From contig JBAYHW010000005.1 in assembly GCA_041665925.1 (NCBI GenBank), forward strand, positions 13,819 through 77,818: DNA of 64,000 nt. The letters are read 5' to 3'. The stretch's first letter is position 1. Each line of letters starts with the position of its first letter. Origin of the DNA: Minisyncoccota bacterium (GTDB lineage: Bacteria; Patescibacteriota; Minisyncoccia; Phycocordibacterales; UBA9973). Shown here piece after piece: positions 1,348-11,333 of this stretch. The notes under the pieces are model-generated. The model was given only the letters and a program-made list of their open reading frames with translations. It did no database searches and was not told the DNA's origin. A program made the translations under genes and the position numbers.

Positions 1348-1360
1348 TTAAAAGTTAAAT

Positions 1361-2152
1361 ATGATTTCAATCCTTACAATTATCTTTTTCCTTTTTGGGC
1401 TCATTATTGGGAGCTTTCTAAATGTGGTTATATTTAGACTAAATACAGAGAAATCTTTCGGAGGGAGGAGTGGTTGTATGGTTTGTAGGCATCAACTTTC
1501 TTGGTATGAGCTTATTCCTATTTTGAGTTTTGTATTTCTTAGAGGTAGATGTAAAAACTGTAAAACTAAAATATCAATTCAGTATCCACTAGTAGAGCTT
1601 ACGACTGGAATTATCTTTGGAGCTCTTTTTTTAAAGTTTCAGGATGTTTTCTTTTTCAGCAATACAGTTATCTTTAGTTTTACCTATGCGTATTATGCAG
1701 TGATGTTTGCTTTGCTTATAGTTATTTCAGTCTATGACTTGAAACATAAAATAATTCCAGATACCCTGTCTCTCATTTTCGGTATTCTAGCTTTTGTCGG
1801 ACTATTTTTATTTTCTAATTATATTTTCTTCCTCCACACACCTTCACTTCTAGAATTCCTTTCGGGGCTATACATAGCCGTACCGTTTGCTTTGTTTTGG
1901 TTGGTATCTGGGGGGAGGTGGATGGGGCTTGGAGATGCCAAGCTTGCCATAGGGCTCGGGTGGTTGCTAGGGCTCTCTGCTGCTCTGTCGGGGATAGTGG
2001 TTGCTTTTTGGGTCGGAGCTGTCGTCGGGATTATGTTAATTATTTTTTCCAGAAAACACGGAATGAAAAGCGAAATTCCATTTGCCCCATATTTAGTTCT
2101 CGGAGCATTATTAGCCTTTCTTTTTGAGCTAAGTATTTTCCCAATTTTTTAG
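1361..2152 (+). CDS. pilD: Prepilin peptidase (A24 family, PilD/GspO)
   Basis: Polytopic membrane protein carrying the N-terminal tetracysteine zinc motif CMVCRHQLSWYELIPILSFVFLRGRCKNCKTKI, plus conserved A24 core motifs. Confidence 0.85.
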   Translation: MISILTIIFFLFGLIIGSFLNVVIFRLNTEKSFGGRSGCMVCRHQLSWYELIPILSFVFLRGRCKNCKTKISIQYPLVELTTGIIFGALFLKFQDVFFFSNTVIFSFTYAYYAVMFALLIVISVYDLKHKIIPDTLSLIFGILAFVGLFLFSNYIFFLHTPSLLEFLSGLYIAVPFALFWLVSGGRWMGLGDAKLAIGLGWLLGLSAALSGIVVAFWVGAVVGIMLIIFSRKHGMKSEIPFAPYLVLGALLAFLFELSIFPIF

Positions 2153-2159
2153 AGAATAG

Positions 2160-2801
2160 ATGAAGAAATTAAATAAAAAAATAAAGACAAATAGGGGAAT
2201 GACTTATGTAGAGCTAATAGTTGTTCTGTCTATTTTTTCGGTGTTGTCTTCGGTGGCGATATTTAATTACGGAGATTTCCAAGCTAGAGTTGATATTAAA
2301 AATTTAGCGAGTGACATAGCTATAAAAATTGTAGAGGCACAAAAAGCTTCCTTAGGCGGAGCACTACCTTTATCTTTTGCCCAACAATCTACCGATCCCA
2401 ACTGGAAACCATCTTATGGAATTCACATAACATCTAATGCCACTTTAGATATTGCTGGAGCTAACGATAAAAACTTTATATATTTTACTGATATTGATAG
2501 CGATAAACTATTTACGGGCGATGGGCCAAATTGTAATGGAGAATGTTTAGATTATATTTCAATAACCAAAGGAGAATACATAGAAAAAATAGAAAAGGTA
2601 TTAGGAAATGCCTATACTCCAATTGCAAATACAGACGCACTTACCATTACCTTCACAAGACCAGATGCGAGTGCAGTTTTTAGTGATTCATTGGGTATAT
2701 TGTCTGGTTTTGATTATGTGAAAATAACCCTTTCCTCGGCCAACCAGCGAGTCAAAGCATCCATAAGAATATATCCATCAGGGAGAATACAGATAGATTA
2801 A
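2160..2801 (+). CDS. Prepilin-type minor pilin / pseudopilin (213 aa)
   Basis: N-terminus NRG|MTYVELIVVLSIFSVLSSVAIF has E+5 and a hydrophobic alpha1 helix. Confidence 0.75.
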   Translation: MKKLNKKIKTNRGMTYVELIVVLSIFSVLSSVAIFNYGDFQARVDIKNLASDIAIKIVEAQKASLGGALPLSFAQQSTDPNWKPSYGIHITSNATLDIAGANDKNFIYFTDIDSDKLFTGDGPNCNGECLDYISITKGEYIEKIEKVLGNAYTPIANTDALTITFTRPDASAVFSDSLGILSGFDYVKITLSSANQRVKASIRIYPSGRIQID

Positions 2802-2803
2802 TT

Positions 2804-3394
2804 ATGAAGAAAATTTTTCCAAAACTGAACAAAAAACAAAGCGAGGGCTATACAATAATTGAAACCATGATAGCGGTTTCTCTTTTTGTGATCATAGTTA
2901 CAGTAGGAATGAATGCACTTTTGAATGCTAATGTACTCCACAATAAATCTCAAGACATGAGATCTATTATCGACAGTTTAAGTTTTGCAATGGAAGATAT
3001 ATCGAAAAATTTAAGAACTGGGTATGATTATCACTGTATCGACGACGGGGACCTTGCACTTATAGATTCCCATAGTTGTATTACGGGAACTGGCATTTCT
3101 TTTAAATCTTCGTCGGGGTTGCAGTTTATATACTATTTAGAGAGTGGAGCTTTTGGGGATAATATTTTTAAATCAGTTGCTGGAGACCCAGCAGTTCAGC
3201 TACTTCCAGATGAGGTTGTCATAGATTCAGTCGATATTTTTACGGTATCTGGGGCGCAGTCTACAACAGCACCAACTCCTGATTTTAATCAACCTTTCGT
3301 CACTATCAGACTCGAGGGTCACATAGACTATAAAGACACCTCTACGCCGTTTTCTTTACAAACTTCAGTTTCTCAAAGAGGAATAGATATTTAA
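2804..3394 (+). CDS. Prepilin-type minor pilin (196 aa)
   Basis: N-terminus SEG|YTIIETMIAVSLFVIIVTVGMNALL has E+5. Confidence 0.75.
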   Translation: MKKIFPKLNKKQSEGYTIIETMIAVSLFVIIVTVGMNALLNANVLHNKSQDMRSIIDSLSFAMEDISKNLRTGYDYHCIDDGDLALIDSHSCITGTGISFKSSSGLQFIYYLESGAFGDNIFKSVAGDPAVQLLPDEVVIDSVDIFTVSGAQSTTAPTPDFNQPFVTIRLEGHIDYKDTSTPFSLQTSVSQRGIDI

Positions 3395-3395
3395 A

Positions 3396-3842
3396 ATGTT
3401 AAAAATTTTTTCAAAAAAAAATAAAGGCGGATTTACTCTAGTGGAAACACTTGTGGCTATTTCAATTTTTACAGTCTCTATTCTCGGGCTTATGTCTATT
3501 TTATCTTCTGGAATTTCTAGTACTACTTATGCTAAAAATAAAATGATTGCCGGGTATTTAGCACAAGAAGGAATAGAGTATGTGAGAAATATGCGCGATA
3601 CTGCCGCACTCACGGCAGCAGATGCTGACACTGGGTGGGCTAACTTTAAAACTAGCGTTGCTCCACCTGCGTTACCTCCTGTATTAAATAGCCCAGATAC
3701 TTATTTTACTCGCATCTTATCAGTGGAAACCACTACTAACCCGGACGAACTCAAGGTTACCTGTGTTGTTTCTTGGACTCAACCTTCCGGTCCTCAAAGC
3801 GTAACCTTGTCAGAGAATTTATTTAATTGGATACAGATATGA
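3396..3842 (+). CDS. Prepilin-type minor pilin, PilV-like (148 aa)
   Basis: N-terminus NKGG|FTLVETLVAISIFTVSILGLMSIL. The stop TGA at 3840-3842 overlaps the next gene's ATG. Confidence 0.75.
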   Translation: MLKIFSKKNKGGFTLVETLVAISIFTVSILGLMSILSSGISSTTYAKNKMIAGYLAQEGIEYVRNMRDTAALTAADADTGWANFKTSVAPPALPPVLNSPDTYFTRILSVETTTNPDELKVTCVVSWTQPSGPQSVTLSENLFNWIQI

Positions 3843-5689
3843 TAATAAAAAATACACAACAAAATAGAGGGTTCGTGATTCTCTTTGCGGTAACCATTGC
3901 GGCGATTCTTTTAACCATAGCTTTAGGTGTGGCCAACATTGCGCAAAAAGAAATAAAATTTAGTACTTCAGCTAAAGATACCAATGAAGCTCTTCTTTCG
4001 GCAGATACCGGTATTGAGTGTGCACTTTTATACGATAAAAATAATGCTTTCCCCATCGGCGGACCAGCAAAACCCCTTACTTGTGCTTCATCTAATATTA
4101 TTCCTGTATTTTCAAGATCGGCTACTGTTGGTTCCTACGATTTTTATATTTCTGGGGTAGGTAATAATATAAAAAATTGTGTCAAAGTAAATGTTACTAA
4201 AGATAGTGCTGCTGTTTCCGCTACGGTAAGAACAACAATAACTTCTAAGGGTTATAACAACAGTGATCCAGGTTCTATAAATTGTGAGTTAGTTAATCCT
4301 GAAAATGTTAACGAGCGTGTTCTCGAAGTGACATACAATACCGGAGATTCTCCAAGCGCTCCTCCATCCACTGTTCCAGTTTGTGATACTACCTTCCCTA
4401 ATGATAAATTTAATGTTTGTTATTTTGCTTTTACTCCTACTGCCGGCGATCCTCCAATTGCTGAACCAATTACAGACGGGACAACTCCAATATTATATAG
4501 TCAGTATCCTGACCCACTAGCAACTAGTGTTGGGTCGTCATCAAGTCCAGTAGGAACTTGGGCAGGTTTTGACCATGATTGGGGAGCTTCACCTCTAGAT
4601 AATGCTATTTCTCCAACCAGTCAAAATAATGAAGTTACTGCTATATGGCGAGGGCGGATAAATTTTAAGGCGGGGACCTATACCTTTAGAACTACTTCTG
4701 ATGATGGAGTTCGTTTAAACGTAGAAGGCGTTGACGTTATTAACAATTGGACTCTTCATGGTATAACCGGGGACAGTGCTTCGGTGACTTTTCCTACTGC
4801 TGGTTATAGAAATGTCCAATTGAGTTGGTTTGAGCATACCGGAGGAGCACGAATTAGATTTAGGTGGGACTATTCAGCTACAGGAATAGGTAGTGGTGGG
4901 GATATAACAAATTCGGGAGGATATACTATCCACACATTTAAGAATAGCGGAACATTTACTGCTCCAAGTACTGTATCTTCTGTTGAAGTTCTTGTGGTGG
5001 GGGGCGGTGGCGGTGGCGGGAAAAGACATGGAGGAGGAGGGGGAGCAGGAGGAGTAATTTACAACGGTTCTTATAGCGTTACTCCAGGTCTAAGTATTCC
5101 CGTGACTGTCGGTGGAGGCGGAGCAGGTGGCATTGAACAGGTTATTGAATCGGATAAAGGAGGACAGCCCGGAGGGGATTCTATTTTTGGAACACTTACA
5201 GCTAAAGGAGGTGGAGGGGGAAGAACGTACGGTCCAGGAGGAACCTCTGGAGCTGGAGGATCTGGCGGAGGAGGCTCAGGGATTTCTCCCGATGCTCGGT
5301 TGGGTGGAACAGGGACATCTGGGCAAGGTAAGAATGGGGGGTCTGGTAGTTCTTCAACGTCAAGTGGAGGTGGTGGTGGGGGTGCGAGTGCATTAGGGGG
5401 AACTGGCGGTACTAATGGCGGAAACGGTGGGGCCGGGTTGCCATATTCTATTTCTGGTTTATCGTTGTATTATGGCGGCGGCGGCGGCGGCGGGAGTGAG
5501 AATGTTGGTGGAAGTGGTGGATTGGGTGGAGGTGGACATGGGGGTGACCAAGGAGGAACAGTAAACCAAACCGCTGGTAGCCCTAATACAGGAGGGGGGG
5601 GTGGAGGGTCTCGAAGTATTATTCCAGAGACAGACAATGGCTCTGACGGTGGGTCTGGTGTTGTAATTATTCGTTACCCTACTCCTTAA
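3839..5689 (+). CDS. PilX-N-like giant minor pilin/tip protein with a PA14-like domain and a long glycine-rich C-terminal tail (about 616 aa)
   Basis: The ATG at 3839 overlaps the previous stop. N-terminus QQNRG|FVILFAVTIAAILLTIALGVANIA resembles the PilX N-terminal pseudopilin helix, which lacks E+5. The central block AIWRGRINFKAGTYTFRTTSDDGVRLNVEGVDVINNWTLHG...VQLSWFEHTGGARIRFRW matches the PA14/GLEYA beta-sandwich signature. The C-terminal 250 aa are runs of GGGGxGG. The ORF track starts at the in-frame TTG at 3827, but the ATG at 3839 is preferred. Confidence 0.7.
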   Translation: MIIKNTQQNRGFVILFAVTIAAILLTIALGVANIAQKEIKFSTSAKDTNEALLSADTGIECALLYDKNNAFPIGGPAKPLTCASSNIIPVFSRSATVGSYDFYISGVGNNIKNCVKVNVTKDSAAVSATVRTTITSKGYNNSDPGSINCELVNPENVNERVLEVTYNTGDSPSAPPSTVPVCDTTFPNDKFNVCYFAFTPTAGDPPIAEPITDGTTPILYSQYPDPLATSVGSSSSPVGTWAGFDHDWGASPLDNAISPTSQNNEVTAIWRGRINFKAGTYTFRTTSDDGVRLNVEGVDVINNWTLHGITGDSASVTFPTAGYRNVQLSWFEHTGGARIRFRWDYSATGIGSGGDITNSGGYTIHTFKNSGTFTAPSTVSSVEVLVVGGGGGGGKRHGGGGGAGGVIYNGSYSVTPGLSIPVTVGGGGAGGIEQVIESDKGGQPGGDSIFGTLTAKGGGGGRTYGPGGTSGAGGSGGGGSGISPDARLGGTGTSGQGKNGGSGSSSTSSGGGGGGASALGGTGGTNGGNGGAGLPYSISGLSLYYGGGGGGGSENVGGSGGLGGGGHGGDQGGTVNQTAGSPNTGGGGGGSRSIIPETDNGSDGGSGVVIIRYPTP

Positions 5690-5707: not shown

Positions 5708-7804
5708 ATGGAAAAAGAGAGAGTTAAAAACCGAATAAAAAAATTGCGGGCGGAGATTGCGCGGTTACGGGGAGAGTATCATATCAAGAATGCCCCAAAC
5801 GTGACGGATGACGTCTATGATTCTTTGACCCGGGAGCTCAAGAGTCTACTGAAAGAATTTCCAGAATTTGAAGATGCTAATTCTAAAGAAAACAGAGTGG
5901 CCGGAAAGCCATTGGATAAATTTGTAAAAGTAAAGCATAAAAACAGGATGCTTTCTTTGAACGATGCTTTCAGTGAAGAAGAACTTAAGGATTGGGAAAA
6001 AAGAATTAAAAAATTACTGGTCGGAGACACAAAGTTCAATTATTTTTGTGAGGTAAAATTTGATGGTTTGGCCGTGTCGCTTATTTATGAAAATGGAAAA
6101 TTTATAAAAGGTGCTACGAGGGGGGATGGATTTGTCGGAGAAGACATAACTCAAAATTTAAAAACAATTCATTCTATACCGCTTGAACTTAAAAGTCCTT
6201 ACCCGAAATATGTTGAAGTTCGTGGGGAAGCAGTAATGTCTAAAAAGACTTTAGAAAAATTAAATAAAATAAACGAAAAAGAAGGTAAAGTCTTATTTGC
6301 TAACACCAGAAATGCAGCTGCTGGGAGCTTGCGTCAGCTCGACCCCAAGCTCGCAGCCGAAAGAAGCTTAGACTTCTTTTCCTATGATATAGCTGAAATT
6401 TCTGAAGACGAAAAATTAATTACGCATTCTGACAAGCATAAGTATCTAAAAAGCTTAGGTTTCCCCGTAGATAGTCATGACGCAGTATGTAAAAATTTAG
6501 GAGAAGTCACTTCTTTTATTAAAAAATTTGAAAAAATTAGGGCGGGATTTGCGTATGGCACAGATGGAGTCGTTATCTCAGTAGATGATTTAAGATTACA
6601 AGAAGTGCTAGGGGTAGTAGGTAAGGCCCCTAGGTATATGTCTGCCTTTAAGTATCCAGCCGAGAGGGCTACTACAGTGGTGAAAGATGTGAAAATAAAT
6701 GTTGGGCGCACTGGCGTGCTTACTCCGCTCGCCATATTTGAGCCCACGCTTGTAGCGGGCTCTATGGTGGGCAAGGCGACCTTGCATAACATGGATCAGA
6801 TAGAACGCTTAGATTTACGTATTGGAGACACTGTGGTTATAGAAAAAGCAGGGGATGTGATTCCGAAAGTGGTGGAAGTTTTAACTCGGATGCGTACCGG
6901 AAAAGAGAAGAAAGTAAAAATGCCGACAATTTGCCCTGTTTGCACTTCACCGGTTCAGAAAATTTCTTCGCGCTTAACCCTAAAGGGCTCCGACACGACT
7001 CAGAAATTTTCCAAACCCGCTACGCAATCAGTGGCTTACTACTGCAGTAATCCTAAGTGTCCGGCAAAAAATGAACGATATTTAGAACATTTTGTTTCTG
7101 TTTTTGAAATATATGAGTTGGGGCCGAAAATTTTAAGACGTTTTAAAGACGAGGGACTTATCACTGATGCTGCAGACTTATTCTCACTGACTAAAGATGA
7201 TTTTACTACTTTGAAAGGCCTGCCCCGTAGGAAGTCGCAGACTTTCCTGTCGGGGTTCGGCGACAAGTCAGCACAAAATATAATCAACGAGATAAACCAC
7301 AAGAAGAAAATTCCATTATCTAAATTTTTATGGGCTCTCGGGATATTGCATGTGGGGGAGGAAACAGCACGAGATCTAGCTGTCCATTTTGGCACATTAG
7401 AAAAATTAACAATTTCAGCACAAAATCACGGAGAAGAAATTGATAGTATAGAAAATATTGGTCCGGCAGTTTTGAAAAGTGTCACCAACTTTTTCAATGA
7501 TAAAAGTAATTTGAACTTTATTAAAAAATTAGAAAAAAATGGAGTAGTAGTAGAAAAAGCAGAAAAAAAGAAAGCGGGGAAATTTTCAGGCATGCTTTTT
7601 GTTCTCACGGGCACACTTTCTACTATGTCTCGCGAAGTAGCGAAAGAAAAAATCTTGGCACTAGGTGGTAAAGTTTCCGGATCCGTTTCTAGAAATACCA
7701 ATTATGTAGTAGCAGGGGAAGAACCTGGTTCAAAACTTGTTACAGCTCAAAAATTAGGAGTAAAAATACTGAGTGAGAAAGAATTTTTAAATTTCCTAGT
7801 ATAG
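5708..7804 (+). CDS. ligA: NAD-dependent DNA ligase
   Basis: Adenylation motif CEVKFDG (KxDG), OB/zinc-finger/HhH regions and a C-terminal BRCT (GxxFVLTG...KLG). 698 aa. Confidence 0.93.
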   Translation: MEKERVKNRIKKLRAEIARLRGEYHIKNAPNVTDDVYDSLTRELKSLLKEFPEFEDANSKENRVAGKPLDKFVKVKHKNRMLSLNDAFSEEELKDWEKRIKKLLVGDTKFNYFCEVKFDGLAVSLIYENGKFIKGATRGDGFVGEDITQNLKTIHSIPLELKSPYPKYVEVRGEAVMSKKTLEKLNKINEKEGKVLFANTRNAAAGSLRQLDPKLAAERSLDFFSYDIAEISEDEKLITHSDKHKYLKSLGFPVDSHDAVCKNLGEVTSFIKKFEKIRAGFAYGTDGVVISVDDLRLQEVLGVVGKAPRYMSAFKYPAERATTVVKDVKINVGRTGVLTPLAIFEPTLVAGSMVGKATLHNMDQIERLDLRIGDTVVIEKAGDVIPKVVEVLTRMRTGKEKKVKMPTICPVCTSPVQKISSRLTLKGSDTTQKFSKPATQSVAYYCSNPKCPAKNERYLEHFVSVFEIYELGPKILRRFKDEGLITDAADLFSLTKDDFTTLKGLPRRKSQTFLSGFGDKSAQNIINEINHKKKIPLSKFLWALGILHVGEETARDLAVHFGTLEKLTISAQNHGEEIDSIENIGPAVLKSVTNFFNDKSNLNFIKKLEKNGVVVEKAEKKKAGKFSGMLFVLTGTLSTMSREVAKEKILALGGKVSGSVSRNTNYVVAGEEPGSKLVTAQKLGVKILSEKEFLNFLV

Positions 7805-7807
7805 GGG

Positions 7808-7892
7808 CGGAGGGTAGGAGATTCGAACTCCTGGTGGATTGCTCCACACACGCTTTCCAAGCGTGCGCACTAGACCGCTATGCGAACCCTCC
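7808..7892 (-). tRNA. tRNA-Ser (anticodon GGA), class II with a long variable arm
   Basis: The reverse complement folds as acceptor GGAGGGT/ACCCTCC, a 3-bp D-stem, anticodon stem CACGC/GCGTG with loop UUGGAAA, a long variable arm, and T-arm AGGAG-UUCGAAU-CUCCU with discriminator G. Confidence 0.85.
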
Positions 7893-8015
7893 AATATTCT
7901 TAATTTACACTATTTTCCCTAAAAAGCTAGAAATAAGCTTATGTCTTGTAATATTTTGACGGATGGAACGACTTAAACAGTAAGGGCTTATCAGTAATTT
8001 CGTTTTTAAAAATAT

Positions 8016-9119
8016 ATGAATTATATACACAAATTTTTACCTTCAATAATAGTAATAGTCTTTTCATTTTTAGTTGTTTCGTCTGTCGGGGCAGTCACTA
8101 ACTCACCCAGCCTGGGGATGGCAAAGACATACGCTGTATTAAGCAGTACATACACCAACACTAGTGCTGGAACCGTAATCAATGGGGACGTTGGATTTAC
8201 TACACCACCAGCCGTTGCCCCTTTAGGGACGCATCTAAATTATGGCTGGCTAGCTCCGTATGCAGTGGCTGGGACAGATCAGGCTACAGCTCTTTCTTCT
8301 TTAACTTCGGAAGGTTGCACTTTTAATTTTCCTGGAGGAGCTATAAATTTATCTACAGATACTACACATGGACCGATAGGTGTATATACTCCGGGTGTGT
8401 ATTGTAGTACTGGAGCAATGGATATAGGAGGACCTTTAAGTTTAAATGGGAACGGAACTTATGTTTTTAGAACAGGTGGTGCACTTACTTCTACTGTGGG
8501 AGCTATCGTTGCATTAAATGACGGAGCATCTGCTTGTAACATATTTTGGATTCCCACTGGGGCGACTACGCTTGCCGCAAACACTACATTTTTTGGAAAT
8601 ATTATAGACGATGCGGGAATTACAGTAGGAGCAAATTCTACTATATTTGGAAGGTTGTTAGCTTTTGCTGGCACTGTAACAACAGATACTAATACTATTA
8701 CAGTTCCAACATGTTCTTCTGGCGTTAATGGGACAATAGGCGGTGGAATACCTTCTCCAGTAAATGGAACAATAGGTGGAAATGTCGGTGGAGGTGGAGT
8801 AAATGGAACAATAGGTGGAAATGTCGGTGGAGGTGGAGTAAATGGAACAATAGATGGAACAGTTGGAGGGTTTGTGAGTGGAACTATTGGCGGAATAATT
8901 GATGGAACATCAGGAGGGGGTGGGGGCGGAAGTAGTAGCGGTAGCAGAAGTAGCGGTGGCGGGAGCGTCTTGGGAGCTAGTACTGGTGGCAATTCGCCTG
9001 GACAAGTCTTAGGAGCCTCTACAGAAAATGTTCCCGGTTTTCCTAACACCGGATATGCTCCTGAAATAAGATATGATTTTATTCAAATTTTCACTCAAAT
9101 GGTCTTGGCTCATATTTAG
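8016..9119 (+). CDS. Secreted ice-binding-like (DUF3494) fold protein with tandem Gly-rich repeats and a C-terminal FPNTG sorting-like motif (367 aa)
   Basis: Signal peptide, then YAVLSSTYTNTSAGTVINGDVGFTTPP...IFGRLLAFAGTVT, matching the DUF3494/IBP beta-helix family pattern. This is followed by 39-bp tandem repeats encoding VNGTIGGNVGGGG. The C-terminus ...VPGFPNTGYAPEIRYDFIQIFTQMVLAHI overlaps the downstream sortase gene. Confidence 0.7.
   Translation: MNYIHKFLPSIIVIVFSFLVVSSVGAVTNSPSLGMAKTYAVLSSTYTNTSAGTVINGDVGFTTPPAVAPLGTHLNYGWLAPYAVAGTDQATALSSLTSEGCTFNFPGGAINLSTDTTHGPIGVYTPGVYCSTGAMDIGGPLSLNGNGTYVFRTGGALTSTVGAIVALNDGASACNIFWIPTGATTLAANTTFFGNIIDDAGITVGANSTIFGRLLAFAGTVTTDTNTITVPTCSSGVNGTIGGGIPSPVNGTIGGNVGGGGVNGTIGGNVGGGGVNGTIDGTVGGFVSGTIGGIIDGTSGGGGGGSSSGSRSSGGGSVLGASTGGNSPGQVLGASTENVPGFPNTGYAPEIRYDFIQIFTQMVLAHI
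8761..8856 (+). repeat. Tandem 39-bp repeat (2.5 copies) encoding the VNGTIGGNVGGGG unit inside the IBP-like gene
   Basis: Exact copies at 8761-8799 and 8800-8838, then a partial third copy. Confidence 0.85.
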
Positions 9120-9654
9120 TATTGTTGGAATAATATTTTTCTTAACATTTTTTTTACTTCAAAATTATGATAGAGGAGTAGGGCTTTGGAATGACGAAGG
9201 GCTATCTCAACTTCCAATGCGACTTAAAATTCCATTAATTAATGTTGATGCAGGGGTAGAAAAAGTGGGACTTACCAAAGAAGGAGTAATGGGGGTACCG
9301 AAAGGTCCAGCTGAAGTAGCGTGGTATATGCTCGGCTCAAAACCAGGTGAATTTGGGAGCGCAGTTATTGCTGGTCATTCTGGATATAAAAACAATCAAC
9401 CCGCGGTGTTTGATAATTTATACAAATTAAAAAAAGGAGATAAAATATATGTAGAAGATGATGTTGGAAAAGTTATTACTTTTATTGTTCGAGAAAGTCG
9501 CAGTTATGACTCGAACGCAGATGCCTCGTCTGTCTTTAATTCTTCTGATGGCCTAGCTCACCTAAATTTAATTACTTGCTCTGGATACTGGAATGAAATA
9601 GAAAAAACCCATTCAAGTAGACTTGTAATATTTACCGATAAAGAAGTAGAATAG
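9073..9654 (+). CDS. Sortase family transpeptidase (membrane-anchored)
   Basis: N-terminal TM segment, catalytic His in VIAGHSG, and the TLxTC-type active site NLITCSGYW. Confidence 0.8.
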   Translation: MILFKFSLKWSWLIFSIVGIIFFLTFFLLQNYDRGVGLWNDEGLSQLPMRLKIPLINVDAGVEKVGLTKEGVMGVPKGPAEVAWYMLGSKPGEFGSAVIAGHSGYKNNQPAVFDNLYKLKKGDKIYVEDDVGKVITFIVRESRSYDSNADASSVFNSSDGLAHLNLITCSGYWNEIEKTHSSRLVIFTDKEVE

Positions 9655-9657
9655 GGT

Positions 9658-10413
9658 GTGAAGAAAATTCTTATTTTAAATAAAAAAGAAGGAGAAACGC
9701 CCTTAGAATGTTTGGGGCGTTTTCGTGCTCATAATAAAAAATATAAAGACATAAAAATGACTTATGCAGGACGCCTGGATCCTATGGCTAGCGGGCTCCT
9801 TTTAGTCCTGGTAGGAGATGAAGTAAAAAACAAAGAAAAATATTTAAAATTAGACAAAGAGTATGAATTTGAGGTTCTTTTTGGTTTCTCTACAGATACT
9901 TATGATATTTTAGGCAAAGTACAACATTCTCACATTCTCAAGAATATTGGAATGTTGGAATTAGAGAAAATTATAAAAAATAATTTGAAACATTTTACAG
10001 GAAAATTTGTTCAAAAGTATCCCTTGTATTCTTCAAAGACAGTCGCTGGGAAACAGCTCTGGGAATATGGCCGTGAAGAAAAAGAAGTAGAAATTCCAAC
10101 CAGAGAGGTGAATGTTAGGAAATTGAAATTTATTAAATTACGAAAAATAAATAACAAAAATCTTTTTGTAAATATTGAAAAAAATATTGAAAAAGTCAAA
10201 GGGGATTTTAGGCAAAGTGAAATTTTGAAAATATGGAAGAAAAATTTAAAGATCAGTTACTCTGTAGTATTTATTGGGAATTTTAAAATCAAATGTAGTA
10301 GTGGCACTTATGTGCGGGGGATAGCCAATTCCCTAGGAGAAAAAATGAATGTTCCAGCTTTAGCATATTCAATAAAAAGGACAAAAATTGGAAAATTTGG
10401 TAAGATGTCGTAA
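9658..10413 (+). CDS. truB: tRNA pseudouridine(55) synthase
   Basis: TruB catalytic motif AGRLDPMASGLLLVLVGD. GTG start; the stop overlaps the next ATG. Confidence 0.85.
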   Translation: MKKILILNKKEGETPLECLGRFRAHNKKYKDIKMTYAGRLDPMASGLLLVLVGDEVKNKEKYLKLDKEYEFEVLFGFSTDTYDILGKVQHSHILKNIGMLELEKIIKNNLKHFTGKFVQKYPLYSSKTVAGKQLWEYGREEKEVEIPTREVNVRKLKFIKLRKINNKNLFVNIEKNIEKVKGDFRQSEILKIWKKNLKISYSVVFIGNFKIKCSSGTYVRGIANSLGEKMNVPALAYSIKRTKIGKFGKMS

Positions 10414-11333
10414 TGGGAGCACAAACAATTTTAACAATTTTATTCGGAGTTGTGGTGGTAGGATTTCTGGTAGCGGACCTTGGGTTTTTCAACAGAAAGA
10501 GCCACAAGATTGAATTTAAGCCCGCACTTTATCAATCTATATTTTGGATTGGTATTTCGCTTGTTTTCGGAGCTTTAATTTTTTTCTTTATAGATAAACA
10601 GACGGCTGTTGAGTTTTTTAGCGCATACGTTACGGAAAAGATGCTTTCTGTGGATAATCTTTTCGTTATTATGCTCATATTTAGCTATTTTAAGTTGGAA
10701 GAAAAATATCACCACAAGGCATTATTCTGGGGGATACTTGGAGCCATAGTTTTCCGCGGTATATTCATCGGCGCTGGAGCATACATTATTCACCAATTTT
10801 ACTGGGTGCTGTATGTCTTTGGAGCCATTCTTTTATACACTGGTATAAAATTATTGGCAGATAAAAAAGAAGAGCACATTGATTTTAAAAATAATAAAGT
10901 TATAAAATTTGCCCATAAAATCTTTCCTTTTACTGATACTCACCACGGAGGTAAATTCTTTTTTAGAGAAAATGGAAAATTTTTCTTCACTTCGCTTTTC
11001 ATGGTAGTTATTATGGTAGAAGCGACGGATATTATTTTTGCTGTGGATTCTATCCCAGCAGTCTTTGCTATCTCTCAGAACCTTTTCGTAGTTTTTACTT
11101 CCAACATCTTTGCCATAATGGGCCTGCGAGCACTTTTCTTTTTACTTGAGAATATTTTGCACCGCTTCCACCACCTCCAGAAAGGGCTAGCTGTTATTTT
11201 GATATTTATCGGAGCTAAAATGCTTTCGGGGATATTTGGCCTTCACATATCTTCCTTTGTGTCCTTCGGAGTAATAATGTTTGCACTCGTGGCTTCTATC
11301 GCATTGTCGTTTATCTTTCCTAAAAAGATTTAA
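10413..11333 (+). CDS. TerC family integral membrane protein
   Basis: Multi-TM protein with TerC-family motifs (paired DNLFVI-type regions and conserved acidic residues in TM helices). Confidence 0.8.
   Translation: MGAQTILTILFGVVVVGFLVADLGFFNRKSHKIEFKPALYQSIFWIGISLVFGALIFFFIDKQTAVEFFSAYVTEKMLSVDNLFVIMLIFSYFKLEEKYHHKALFWGILGAIVFRGIFIGAGAYIIHQFYWVLYVFGAILLYTGIKLLADKKEEHIDFKNNKVIKFAHKIFPFTDTHHGGKFFFRENGKFFFTSLFMVVIMVEATDIIFAVDSIPAVFAISQNLFVVFTSNIFAIMGLRALFFLLENILHRFHHLQKGLAVILIFIGAKMLSGIFGLHISSFVSFGVIMFALVASIALSFIFPKKI

What the first reader, a model, noticed from the sequence alone, without database searches (positions are those of the whole stretch)
8016..9654. Ice-binding-like (DUF3494) secreted protein with exact tandem Gly repeats, genetically coupled to a sortase
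The substrate-like gene encodes a DUF3494/IBP beta-helix signature, then exact 39-bp tandem repeats (VNGTIGGNVGGGG), a slippage-prone tract. It ends with ...FPNTG followed by a short hydrophobic tail. Its last 47 nt overlap the start of a TM-anchored sortase (catalytic LITCSG). FPNTG is not canonical LPXTG, so either this sortase has a non-canonical sorting signal or the 3' end of the substrate gene is frameshifted. Repeat-number variation could give phase or antigenic variation of a surface protein.
Basis: partly seen in the sequence, partly recalled or inferred. Interest (0 to 1): 0.6.

Follow-up and report, generated by a model that had tools for sequence, protein, structure and literature searches.

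The report
Ice-binding-like surface protein with sortase
An uncultured ultra-small bacterium (Paceibacterota, Patescibacteria/CPR) carries a two-gene cassette that is common in its group: a secreted ice-binding-fold protein on a glycine-rich stalk ending in a sortase cleavage motif, followed by its own sortase. This copy is unusual only because it has lost the membrane-spanning tail that normally completes such a sorting signal.

Summary
ORF 8016-9119 encodes a signal peptide, a DUF3494/Ice_binding beta-solenoid, a disordered Gly-rich stalk with two exact 39-bp units, then FPNTG and a 21-residue tail. ORF 9073-9654 overlaps it by 47 nt. It is a membrane-anchored sortase with invariant His102, Cys169 and Arg183, closest to class F.

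Both genes are already in GenBank as 'ice-binding family protein' and 'class F sortase' of a Ca. Paceibacterota MAG.

The pairing is a conserved Patescibacteria cassette. In 62 of 72 evaluable species-level loci a sortase lies downstream on the same strand or is fused. FPxTG is a normal minority variant of the family's [LFM]Px[TA]G motif.

What is atypical is the tail. In 62 of 64 species-level homologs a transmembrane (TM) segment follows the motif. Here only 19 nt separate FPNTG from the sortase start, so no frame can encode a TM segment. That rules out a frameshift artefact. One other lineage (L002) and two Peribacter species also lack the TM segment.

A second assembly is identical over 13 kb except for one missing 39-bp unit. 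The repeat is in frame, so it changes stalk length, not ON/OFF expression.

Most likely this is sortase-dependent surface display with a derived, TM-less sorting signal. A decayed, merely secreted protein is the main rival.

The parts
8016..9119 (+). Gene for the secreted DUF3494/Ice_binding surface protein (367 aa). It equals GenBank MFA6520570.1, 'ice-binding family protein', Ca. Paceibacterota MAG.
   Evidence: ORF list; Pfam PF11999 at E 2e-26; 100% identical to P0266.
8016..8093 (+). Sec-type signal peptide (residues 1-26, ...VSSVGA|VT).
   Evidence: An N-terminal hydrophobic helix at residues 2-21 in the AF2 model. Homologs share an A-x-A|ATTPSLG junction just before the domain. The cleavage site is inferred.
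8106..8705 (+). DUF3494 / ice-binding-like beta-solenoid with a flanking alpha-helix (residues 31-230).
   Evidence: pLDDT >90, helix at 82-97 plus a stack of strands. The 31 best PDB matches are all DUF3494 IBPs, with target-normalised TM-score up to 0.90.
8706..9038 (+). Gly/Ser-rich disordered stalk (residues 231-341).
   Evidence: pLDDT <50 for residues 237-336. The same position in homologs holds hypervariable Ser-, Thr- or Pro-rich linkers or stalk domains PF24346, PF19403 and PF01345.
8759..8859 (+). In-frame 39-bp tandem repeat: two identical units plus a 23-nt partial unit with one mismatch. It encodes VNGTIGGNVGGGG twice.
   Evidence: TRF: period 39, 2.6 copies, 98% matches; units identical. 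Assembly L001 lacks exactly one unit.
9039..9053 (+). FPNTG sortase recognition pentapeptide (residues 342-346).
   Evidence: It aligns with the family's [LFM]Px[TA]G column; P343 and G346 are invariant in A1.
9054..9116 (+). 21-residue C-terminal tail, YAPEIRYDFIQIFTQMVLAHI. It has no TM segment and no basic end, and is predicted to form a short amphipathic helix at residues 354-366.
   Evidence: Hydrophobicity and hydrophobic moment. AF2 helix at 354-366, pLDDT 63-73. No match to TIGR01167, whereas TM-bearing homolog tails score 12-15.5 bits.
9073..9654 (+). Class F-like sortase gene (193 aa). It equals GenBank MFA6520571.1 and overlaps the upstream gene by 47 nt in the +1 frame.
   Evidence: Pfam PF04203 at E 2.6e-21. 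NCBIfam class F scores 109.3 bits, the best of all classes but below the 166 cut-off. Sortase fold: 121 PDB matches with E<=0.001. Name given by NCBI.
9094..9165 (+). N-terminal membrane anchor of the sortase (residues 8-31).
   Evidence: AF2 helix at 8-31. The N-terminal pattern M..K[IF]SLKWS.LI.S..G is conserved in sortase homologs, so this TM segment belongs to the sortase and not to the substrate.
9376..9378 (+). Catalytic His102 (AGHSG).
   Evidence: Invariant in A2. It aligns with the GH of class C sortase 8t28.
9577..9579 (+). Catalytic Cys169 (LITCSG).
   Evidence: Invariant in A2. It aligns with the TC motif of solved sortases.
9619..9621 (+). Catalytic Arg183 (SSRLVIF).
   Evidence: Invariant in A2.

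Best explanation
This is a two-gene surface-display cassette of a Paceibacterota (CPR) bacterium.

Shown:
- Gene 1 encodes a protein with an N-terminal export signal, a DUF3494 beta-solenoid head, a disordered Gly-rich stalk and a C-terminal FPNTG motif.
- Gene 2 overlaps gene 1 by 47 nt and is followed 3 nt later by truB, so the genes are very likely co-transcribed.
- Gene 2 encodes a membrane-anchored cysteine transpeptidase of the class F-like sortase clade with an intact His-Cys-Arg triad.
- The same gene order is conserved across Patescibacteria.

Inferred:
- The protein is exported by Sec. The sortase cleaves FPNT|G and transfers the head and stalk to a cell-wall (lipid II / peptidoglycan) amine, so the solenoid is displayed on the cell surface as an adhesin-like module.
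- In this lineage the usual TM-plus-basic retention tail has been deleted. The gene now runs into the sortase gene.
- The remaining 21-residue tail, a short amphipathic helix, together with tightly coupled synthesis of the sortase, is proposed to hold the substrate at the membrane long enough for capture.
- The 39-bp repeat is a recent in-frame duplication that changes stalk length by 13 residues per unit.
For: - Domain and fold assignments.
- Catalytic triad invariant in 21 homologs, and the sortase start and TM segment conserved.
- Of 72 evaluable species-level loci, 47 have the sortase as the next gene, 14 have it further downstream on the same strand and 1 has it fused.
- Homolog C-termini carry [LFM]Px[TA]G, about 10 residues, a TM segment and a basic tail in 62 of 64 cases. 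FPxTG recurs.
- The 3' end is reproduced in a second assembly, L001.
- TM-less tails with an intact motif also occur in L002 (FPNTG, 22-nt overlap with its sortase) and in two Peribacter species that are 72% identical overall. In those two the tail is about as conserved as the solenoid domain, and the motif is kept as LPNTG or LPITG.
- The Peribacter protein P0031 is seen on 12 contigs from several sources.
- TM-less tails have a high hydrophobic moment (0.53-0.67, against 0.30-0.33 for TM tails).
- The mature protein has a single, non-conserved Lys (K37). That argues against pilin-type polymerisation and for wall anchoring.
Against: - The classical sorting signal is tripartite: motif, hydrophobic stretch and positively charged tail (reviewed in PMC8225981).
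- From my own knowledge of Schneewind et al. 1992-93, removing the hydrophobic or charged part of protein A causes secretion instead of anchoring.
- TM-less tails are rare: the window lineage, L002 and two Peribacter species among roughly 190 homologs inspected. That fits sporadic decay.
- Most of the window tail (14 of 21 residues) is simply the out-of-frame reading of the conserved sortase N-terminus, so its amphipathic character may be accidental.
- There are no expression, proteomic or biochemical data.
- The acceptor nucleophile in CPR cell walls is unknown.
Confidence: 0.55

Rival explanations
1. Decayed sorting signal. A deletion removed the TM segment and charged tail, so the DUF3494 protein is simply secreted or shed and no longer anchored. 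FPNTG is then a relic, and the sortase is retained for other substrates elsewhere in the genome or is itself on the way out.
For: - The tail lacks both retention elements found in 62 of 64 homologs.
- TM-less forms are rare and scattered.
- The junctions differ between the window (sortase in the +1 frame, 47-nt overlap) and L002 (+2 frame, 22-nt overlap). That suggests independent deletions rather than a designed architecture.
- Established knowledge holds that the hydrophobic and charged tail is required for anchoring (Schneewind 1992-93 from memory).
Against: - The motif and its flanks (PG-FPNTG-[YF][AS]P) are intact in all four TM-less lineages.
- In the two Peribacter species the TM-less tail predates their divergence (72% identity), yet the motif and tail are still conserved.
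- The sortase here has an intact triad and a conserved N-terminus.
- No other sortase or CWSS-bearing ORF is present in the 64-kb window, though the rest of the genome is unseen.
Confidence: 0.3
2. Programmed +1 ribosomal frameshift (or readthrough at the TAG) moves some ribosomes from the substrate frame into the sortase frame. The substrate then acquires the sortase's TM helix as its missing membrane anchor (...FPNTGYAPEIR...-SIVGIIFFLTFFLLQ...).
For: - The sortase frame is +1 relative to the substrate frame.
- Its TM segment (WSWLIFSIVGIIFFLTFFLL) resembles the W-x-I-I-x-x-x-G-I... TM segment of canonical homolog tails.
- Natural fusions of the type substrate-TM-basic-TM-sortase exist in L020 and L035.
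Against: - No recognisable slippery site or stimulatory element was seen.
- The required shift differs between lineages: +1 in the window, L004 and L014, but +2/-1 in L002.
- A single shared TM segment would leave the fused sortase domain in the cytoplasm.
- Nothing in the sequence demands this reading.
Confidence: 0.03
3. Assembly or sequencing artefact: a frameshift error at the 3' end of the substrate gene, and a mis-assembled repeat count.
For: The two available assemblies differ in repeat copy number. This could be assembler collapse or expansion of a short repeat.
Against: - The 3' end is identical in both assemblies.
- Only 19 nt lie between FPNTG and the sortase ATG, whose position matches homolog starts, so no indel correction can restore a TM tail.
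- L002 and the Peribacter loci show the same kind of architecture, and P0031 sits on 12 contigs.
- The repeat array is only 101 nt, which single reads and the k=141 of one assembler can span.
Confidence: 0.03
4. The cassette builds a covalent fibre or pilus (class C-like polymerisation of DUF3494 subunits) rather than anchoring single molecules to the wall.
For: - The best structural matches of the sortase model are class C pilin sortases (phmmer best hit 8t28 class C).
- The dedicated sortase-next-to-substrate layout resembles pilus islands.
Against: - Sequence HMMs put all 21 homologs about 75 bits closer to class F than to class C.
- No DP[WFY] lid motif appears between the TM segment and the catalytic domain (sequence).
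- The mature substrate has one non-conserved Lys and no invariant Lys in 38 homologs, so there is no pilin-motif nucleophile.
Confidence: 0.05

Closest known systems
Sortase-anchored surface proteins of Gram-positive bacteria (protein A / SrtA paradigm; tripartite LPXTG cell-wall sorting signal, TIGR01167)
   Same: N-terminal export signal, functional head, low-complexity wall-spanning stalk, and a C-terminal xPxTG pentapeptide. A membrane-anchored His-Cys-Arg sortase is encoded alongside. Most homologs of this protein carry the full tripartite signal.
   Different: Position 1 of the motif is F rather than L. The hydrophobic domain and charged tail are absent, and TIGR01167 gives no match. The host is a CPR bacterium with an uncharacterised envelope.
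Class F sortases (NCBIfam NF033748). The only characterised member is the housekeeping SrtF of Cutibacterium/Propionibacterium acnes, which recognises LPXTG (Girolamo et al. 2019, cited in PMC8225981).
   Same: Best HMM class for this enzyme and for all 21 aligned homologs. NCBI names the identical protein 'class F sortase'. It is paired with an LPXTG-type motif.
   Different: It scores 109 bits, below the curated 166-bit cut-off, so it is a divergent CPR clade. It looks like a dedicated enzyme encoded next to one substrate rather than a housekeeping sortase. No solved class F structure was available for comparison.
DUF3494 ice-binding proteins (e.g. FfIBP 4nu2, Flavobacteriaceae IBPv 5uyt, Shewanella frigidimarina SfIBP_1 6bg8)
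   Same: The same discontinuous beta-solenoid with a flanking helix. The Pfam match runs over the full model length, with 22-29% identity to solved IBPs.
   Different: It scores 48.8 against a 400 cut-off on the IBP equivalog model NF045625. The relatives come largely from groundwater, aquifer and lake CPR MAGs (record titles). No evidence of ice binding exists, so a generic adhesin or surface role is equally likely.
Fibrillar-adhesin-like and 'Periscope' variable-length surface proteins (Monzon et al. 2021, PMC8286594; Whelan et al. 2021, cited in PMC9210967)
   Same: Adhesive head, stalk and sortase anchor. Ice_binding PF11999 is on the authors' list of adhesive domains, and their stalk family PF19403 occurs in homologs of this protein. 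Near-identical in-frame DNA repeats in the stalk vary in number between assemblies.
   Different: The stalk here is a short disordered Gly-rich linker with 2.6 copies of a 13-residue unit. It is not an array of folded repeat domains.
Dedicated sortase / single-target cassettes, e.g. class GN 'marine' sortase TIGR03784 with its adjacent target, or SrtB-IsdC (own knowledge)
   Same: One sortase is encoded next to one cognate substrate, and the pair is conserved across many genomes.
   Different: A different sortase class, motif and passenger domain. Here the pair occurs across the Patescibacteria.

Membership tests
DUF3494 / Ice_binding (PF11999) | Profile HMM match above the gathering score | tested here: met
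   93.4 bits against 28.7, covering profile positions 5-208 of 208.
DUF3494 / Ice_binding (PF11999) | Beta-solenoid fold with a long flanking alpha-helix | tested here: met
   The AF2 domain has pLDDT >90. The top 31 Foldseek PDB hits are all DUF3494 IBPs, E down to 9e-13.
DUF3494 / Ice_binding (PF11999) | Ice binding, thermal hysteresis or recrystallisation inhibition | not testable with these tools
   This needs a protein assay. The NCBIfam IBP equivalog NF045625 is far below its cut-off (48.8 against 400).
Sortase (PF04203, peptidase C60) | Profile HMM match and eight-stranded sortase fold | tested here: met
   76.1 bits against 26.6. 121 PDB matches with E<=0.001, all top hits sortases.
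Sortase (PF04203, peptidase C60) | Catalytic His-Cys-Arg triad | tested here: met
   H102, C169 (LITC) and R183 are invariant in 21 homologs. His and Cys align to solved sortases.
Sortase (PF04203, peptidase C60) | N-terminal membrane anchor | tested here: met
   AF2 helix at residues 8-31, conserved in homologs.
Class F sortase (NF033748) | Score at or above the curated cut-off of 166 bits | tested here: not met
   109.3 bits. It is still the best class by about 75 bits for all 21 homologs, and NCBI names the identical protein class F. I therefore file it as class F-like.
Class C (pilin-polymerising) sortase | Lid with a DP[WFY] motif, and a partner pilin with a conserved Lys nucleophile | tested here: not met
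   No such motif lies between the TM segment and the catalytic domain. The substrate has no conserved Lys. The class C HMM scores only 32.6 bits.
LPXTG cell-wall sorting signal (TIGR01167 / PF00746) | LPXTG-type pentapeptide near the C-terminus | tested here: met
   FPNTG at residues 342-346, in the family's [LFM]Px[TA]G column. FPxTG occurs in 9 of 120 and 5 of 64 homologs.
LPXTG cell-wall sorting signal (TIGR01167 / PF00746) | Hydrophobic membrane-spanning stretch after the motif | tested here: not met
   Best 15-residue Kyte-Doolittle mean is 1.0, and 18-residue Eisenberg <H> is 0.29 against about 0.8 for TM tails. No frame has room for a TM segment.
LPXTG cell-wall sorting signal (TIGR01167 / PF00746) | Positively charged C-terminal tail | tested here: not met
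   The tail ends ...MVLAHI. Homologs end in RKKQ-like tails. TIGR01167 gives no hit, against 12-15.5 bits for three of four TM-bearing homolog tails.
Phase-variable (contingency) gene with slippage-prone repeat | Repeat unit not divisible by 3, so copy change switches the frame ON or OFF | tested here: not met
   The unit is 39 nt, or 13 codons. The one-unit variant P0001 is full length and in frame.
Variable-length ('Periscope'-like) stalk protein | Near-identical in-frame DNA repeats whose number differs between strains | tested here: inconclusive
   Two assemblies are identical over 13 kb but differ by one unit. Whether this is population variation or an assembler effect needs reads. 18 of 72 homologs have in-frame linker repeats.

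The most novel reading that the evidence does not exclude
The class F-like sortases of Patescibacteria may recognise and capture their dedicated DUF3494 partner without the substrate's own membrane anchor. Three observations would then be points on one continuum:
- the TM-less signals (this window, L002 and two Peribacter species);
- the overlapping, co-translated genes;
- natural fusions, including one (L068) in which LPKTG runs straight into the sortase catalytic domain with no TM segment.

This would be a cis- or co-translationally coupled mode of sortase substrate delivery not described for Gram-positive sortases.
Probability: 0.15. Interest if true: 0.7.

Novelty: new variant of a known kind. 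Interest (0 to 1): 0.4.

Why it matters
Patescibacteria live attached to other microbes, and very little is known about their surface proteins beyond type IV pili. A cassette of DUF3494 head, stalk, sortase motif and dedicated sortase recurs across many CPR lineages. The head domain is 70-75% identical between distant groups. That makes it a concrete, testable candidate for a major covalently anchored surface adhesin of these cells.

It also shows that 'ice-binding family protein' annotations in groundwater CPR genomes probably mark a surface-display module rather than antifreeze function.

The TM-less sorting signals and substrate-sortase fusions give sortase biochemists natural variants. These can be used to test whether the hydrophobic and charged tail is dispensable when enzyme and substrate are tightly coupled.

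For this particular locus, however, both genes are already annotated in GenBank, and the core biology (sortase plus sorted protein) is textbook.

Tried and rejected
- **Assembly frameshift.** Rejected. The 3' end is identical in L001, and the 19-nt gap gives no room for a TM segment.
- **The sortase TM segment as the substrate's displaced tail.** Rejected. The N-terminal TM segment and start are conserved in sortases whose neighbouring substrate has its own TM segment, e.g. L009 and L036.
- **Homology of the window and L002 tails (DF[IM]x[IL]F...).** Not relied on. The overlaps are in different relative frames and positions, so the resemblance may be chance.
- **More strain variants of the repeat.** An exact 41-mer scan of metagenome contigs gave 0 hits. 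The look-up of encoding contigs did not find the 367-aa product and returned only one contig for the sortase.
- **More TM-less relatives.** A third protein search seeded with P0031 found no additional TM-less tails.
- **Literature.** No paper holds both DUF3494 and sortase. Searches on CPR plus sortase gave only incidental mentions.
- **Promoter and terminator scan of 7700-10500.** Not different from shuffles: 12 against 7.9±2.8 promoter-like sites, and 1 against 1.9 terminators.
- **GC profile.** It shows only the Gly-codon enrichment and no island signature.
- **Other sortases or xPxTG-tailed ORFs in the window.** None found.
Full report
**What is there**

The + strand holds ORF 8016-9119 (367 aa) and ORF 9073-9654 (193 aa). 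They overlap by 47 nt.

The first protein matches Pfam Ice_binding/DUF3494 over the whole profile (E 2e-26, residues 44-229). The second matches Pfam Sortase (E 2.6e-21).

Tandem Repeats Finder reports a 39-bp period at 8759-8859: 2.6 copies, 98% matches, score 195. The first two units are identical base for base and encode VNGTIGGNVGGGG twice.

FPNTG is residues 342-346 (nt 9039-9053). It is followed by YAPEIRYDFIQIFTQMVLAHI and a TAG stop.

**Identity of the two proteins**

- An AlphaFold2 model built on 38 homologs gives pLDDT >90 for residues 31-230. This part is a beta-solenoid with a flanking helix at residues 82-97.
- Residues 237-352 form a disordered linker, and a short C-terminal helix spans residues 354-366.
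- The 31 best Foldseek matches in the PDB are all DUF3494 ice-binding proteins (5uyt at E 9e-13; target TM-score up to 0.90).
- The sortase model has an N-terminal helix at residues 8-31 and the sortase barrel. It gives 121 PDB matches at E<=0.001, all top ones sortases.
- In an alignment of 21 homologs, H102 (AGHSG), C169 (LITC) and R183 are invariant.
- Among NCBIfam class models, class F is best at 109.3 bits. The next class scores about 33 bits. The same holds for all 21 homologs, but the score is below the curated 166-bit cut-off.
- The window proteins are identical to GenBank MFA6520570.1 ('ice-binding family protein') and MFA6520571.1 ('class F sortase'). Both belong to a Candidatus Paceibacterota MAG on an 85-kb contig.
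- At the level of gene naming, nothing here is new.

**The pairing is a conserved Patescibacteria cassette**

A search of 5.8 billion proteins gave 718 relatives among the 8000 candidates scored. Every source-given name that specifies a lineage is a CPR group: Paceibacterota, Peribacteria, Gracilibacteria, Doudnabacteria and 'Patescibacteria group'.

A scan of one genome per GTDB species returned 79 loci. I called ORFs and searched them with HMMs built from my two alignments. Seventy-two loci were evaluable:

| Position of the sortase | Loci |
|---|---|
| Next gene downstream | 47 |
| Further downstream, same strand (usually behind a second surface-protein gene) | 14 |
| Fused into the same ORF | 1 |
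| Elsewhere in the flank | 1 |
| None found, but under 900 nt of downstream sequence available | 3 |
| None within about 4-5 kb | 6 |

The C-termini are equally uniform:

| Motif | Species-level proteins (of 64 with a recognisable motif) |
|---|---|
| LPxTG | 45 |
| LPxAG | 6 |
| FPxTG | 5 |
| MPxTG | 4 |
| FPxAG | 3 |
| LPxSG | 1 |

In 62 of these 64, the motif is followed by about 10 residues, a TM segment and a basic tail. A typical example is LPNTG-FAPxExNxxPW-NIIIPxGIFxxLxSFYLA-RKKQ.

Among the 120 best protein hits, 72 have LPxTG and 9 have FPxTG. FPNTG is therefore an ordinary minority form of the family motif. It does not by itself indicate a special specificity.

**What is unusual: the missing anchor**

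- The window tail has a best 15-residue Kyte-Doolittle mean of 1.0. All full-length homolog tails but those of P0002 and P0031 score 1.8-3.7. The window tail has no basic end.
- It gives no match to TIGR01167. Three of four TM-bearing homolog tails reach 12-15.5 bits, just under the 15.9 cut-off.
- This is not a sequencing frameshift:
  - The sortase start codon at 9073 aligns with the starts of its homologs. Its N-terminal pattern (M..K[IF]SLKWS.LI.S..G) is conserved even where the neighbouring substrate has its own TM segment.
  - A TAA at 9067-9069 closes the sortase frame upstream.
  - Only 19 nt separate the Gly codon of FPNTG from that ATG.
  - No reading frame can therefore hold the 25 or more codons of a TM segment and tail.
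- A second assembly has the same 3' end (L001, ENA ERZ27249449, MEGAHIT contig).
- The hydrophobic and charged part has evidently been deleted in this lineage.
- Fourteen of the 21 tail residues are just the out-of-frame reading of the sortase N-terminus.

**Other lineages that lack the anchor**

- L002 (IBP domain 72% identical, completely different neighbourhood) ends FPNTGFSPVQKNNSWGDFMGLFQNLWKLNIR and overlaps its sortase by 22 nt.
- Two Peribacter species, L004 (which equals P0031) and L014, end LPNTG or LPITG plus a tail of about 43 residues with no TM segment. Each overlaps its sortase by 47 nt.
  - These two proteins are 72% identical overall.
  - Their tails (QESFGSSLELLLRNLSSLFLNVYRSSLK and QETFESSFETLLRNFSSLFLNVYRNSLK) are about as conserved as the solenoid domain and far more conserved than the Ser-rich linker.
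  - Several differences are synonymous in the substrate frame upstream of the overlap.
  - P0031 is recorded on 12 contigs from several sources.
- TM-less tails have higher helical hydrophobic moments (0.53-0.67) than TM tails (0.30-0.33), and a low mean hydrophobicity. AF2 predicts a helix for the window tail.
- The relative frames and overlap lengths differ between the window and L002. The IBP-domain identities are star-like, with many relatives at 72-75%. The losses therefore look independent.
- A TM-less signal can persist with its motif intact. It is nevertheless rare: four lineages among roughly 190 homologs inspected.

**The repeat**

- The window and L001 are identical over 13 kb except that L001 lacks exactly one 39-bp unit. 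The single apparent SNP at 8815 is an alignment-edge effect inside the repeat.
- The two forms are both on record: 367 aa in NCBI/JGI and 354 aa in ENA.
- Thirty-nine nucleotides is 13 codons, so copy-number change alters stalk length only. ON/OFF phase variation is excluded.
- Whether the difference is population heterogeneity or an assembler effect cannot be decided without reads.
- In-frame linker repeats occur in 18 of 72 homolog genes, always with periods divisible by 3. Linker length and composition are hypervariable across the family. Stalk-length change is thus a family trait, and this array is a very recent duplication.

**Mechanism**

I consider sortase-dependent surface display most likely.

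Shown: the export signal, the head, stalk and motif architecture, an intact membrane-anchored sortase, a conserved gene order and tight packing. truB starts 3 nt after the sortase stop. No terminator-like site above background was found.

Inferred: Sec export, cleavage at FPNT|G and transfer to a cell-wall amine.

Wall anchoring is preferred over pilus polymerisation for three reasons:
- The mature protein has one non-conserved Lys, and the 38-sequence alignment has no invariant Lys.
- The sortase lacks a class C lid motif.
- The HMMs favour class F over class C by about 75 bits.

How a TM-less substrate is retained for capture is the weak step. I propose the amphipathic tail helix plus coupled synthesis. 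Classical work on the tripartite signal (reviewed in PMC8225981) predicts that such a protein would mostly be secreted. 'Decayed signal, secreted protein' is therefore a serious rival, at about 0.3. A +1 frameshift that borrows the sortase TM segment is formally possible, since the frames fit. It lacks any slippery site and is not consistent across lineages. Assembly error is essentially excluded for the junction.

**Comparison with known systems**

- The locus works like a Gram-positive LPXTG protein with its sortase. It fails two of the three defining features of the canonical sorting signal.
- The enzyme is class F-like but scores below the family cut-off.
- The head is a bona fide DUF3494 fold, but ice binding is untested. 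The sources of its relatives (aquifer, groundwater, lake and wastewater MAGs) give no reason to expect it.
- Ice_binding is listed as an adhesive head of 'fibrillar adhesin-like' proteins. The stalk family PF19403 from the same study occurs in homologs (PMC8286594).
- I found no paper that links DUF3494 with sortases or with CPR.

**Verdict**

The finding is real and correctly read in outline. Its core is ordinary and already annotated. The added value has three parts:
- The pair is a CPR-wide cassette.
- This copy has a genuine, reproducible TM-less sorting signal.
- The only difference between two assemblies of this strain is one repeat unit.

I rate interest at 0.4. Novelty: a new variant of a known kind.

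Noticed in passing
L068 4968-7544 (Ca. Gracilibacteria MAG, JBKBWQ010000001.1): One uninterrupted ORF holds a signal peptide, a DUF3494 domain, DUF11-like repeats and LPKTG. It then runs directly into a sortase catalytic domain (...KLPKTGVVPETRVLPVNIIIPSIAVNAAVQKVGL...) with no TM segment in between. This is a natural substrate-sortase fusion.
   Followed up: partly
L020 7534-10119; L035 1970-4336: Large single ORFs contain, in order: a surface-protein part, an xPxTG motif, a TM segment, a poly-Lys/Arg stretch, a second TM segment, a sortase domain, a peptidoglycan-binding-like region and a further LPxxG motif. These are hairpin-TM fusions of substrate and sortase.
   Followed up: no
L004 5947-6558; L014 6043-6657; L021 6018-6632 (Peribacteria): The Peribacter sortases start with a lipobox-like sequence (..ANIGCAS.. 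or ..ASAGCAS..) instead of the TM pattern of the Paceibacterota enzymes. This suggests lipoprotein-anchored sortases.
   Followed up: no
window 1352-5689 (and L001 1-3674): A type IV pilus-like cluster lies just upstream. It holds a prepilin peptidase (A24), small N_methyl pilin-like genes, and a 620-aa protein (3827-5689) with a pilin-like N-terminal TM segment, a PA14 domain and a Gly_rich_2 domain. The GGN-rich 3' half of that protein raises GC to 0.58.
   Followed up: partly
window 7805-7893 (-): tRNA-Ser(GGA) on the minus strand abuts the ligA stop codon (7804) with no spacer and sits 122 nt upstream of the DUF3494 gene. In L002 the same cassette lies in an unrelated neighbourhood, about 1.3 kb downstream of a large serine recombinase gene. 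Together with the 70-75% identity of the DUF3494 domain between distant CPR groups, this hints at horizontal spread of the cassette. This was not tested.
   Followed up: no
L028, L030, L043, L053, L054, L065: In these loci, one or two further large surface-protein genes sit between the DUF3494 gene and the sortase. They hit the DUF3494/CWSS profile weakly to strongly. One sortase may therefore serve several adjacent substrates.
   Followed up: no
window 8955-9038 (residues ~314-341); also P0002, P0004, P0021, P0106: A short motif, VLG[AT]ST, occurs just upstream of the sorting pentapeptide. It appears twice in the window protein (SVLGAST...QVLGAST...PGFPNTG). It recurs in some homologs, including 5 of 64 species-level loci. 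Its meaning is unknown.
   Followed up: no
L003, L015, L019, L033, L035, L048, L058: These GTDB genome records carry the cassette but are titled 'uncultured Gammaproteobacteria bacterium'. Every other named record with the cassette is a CPR lineage, so the titles look like mislabels.
   Followed up: no
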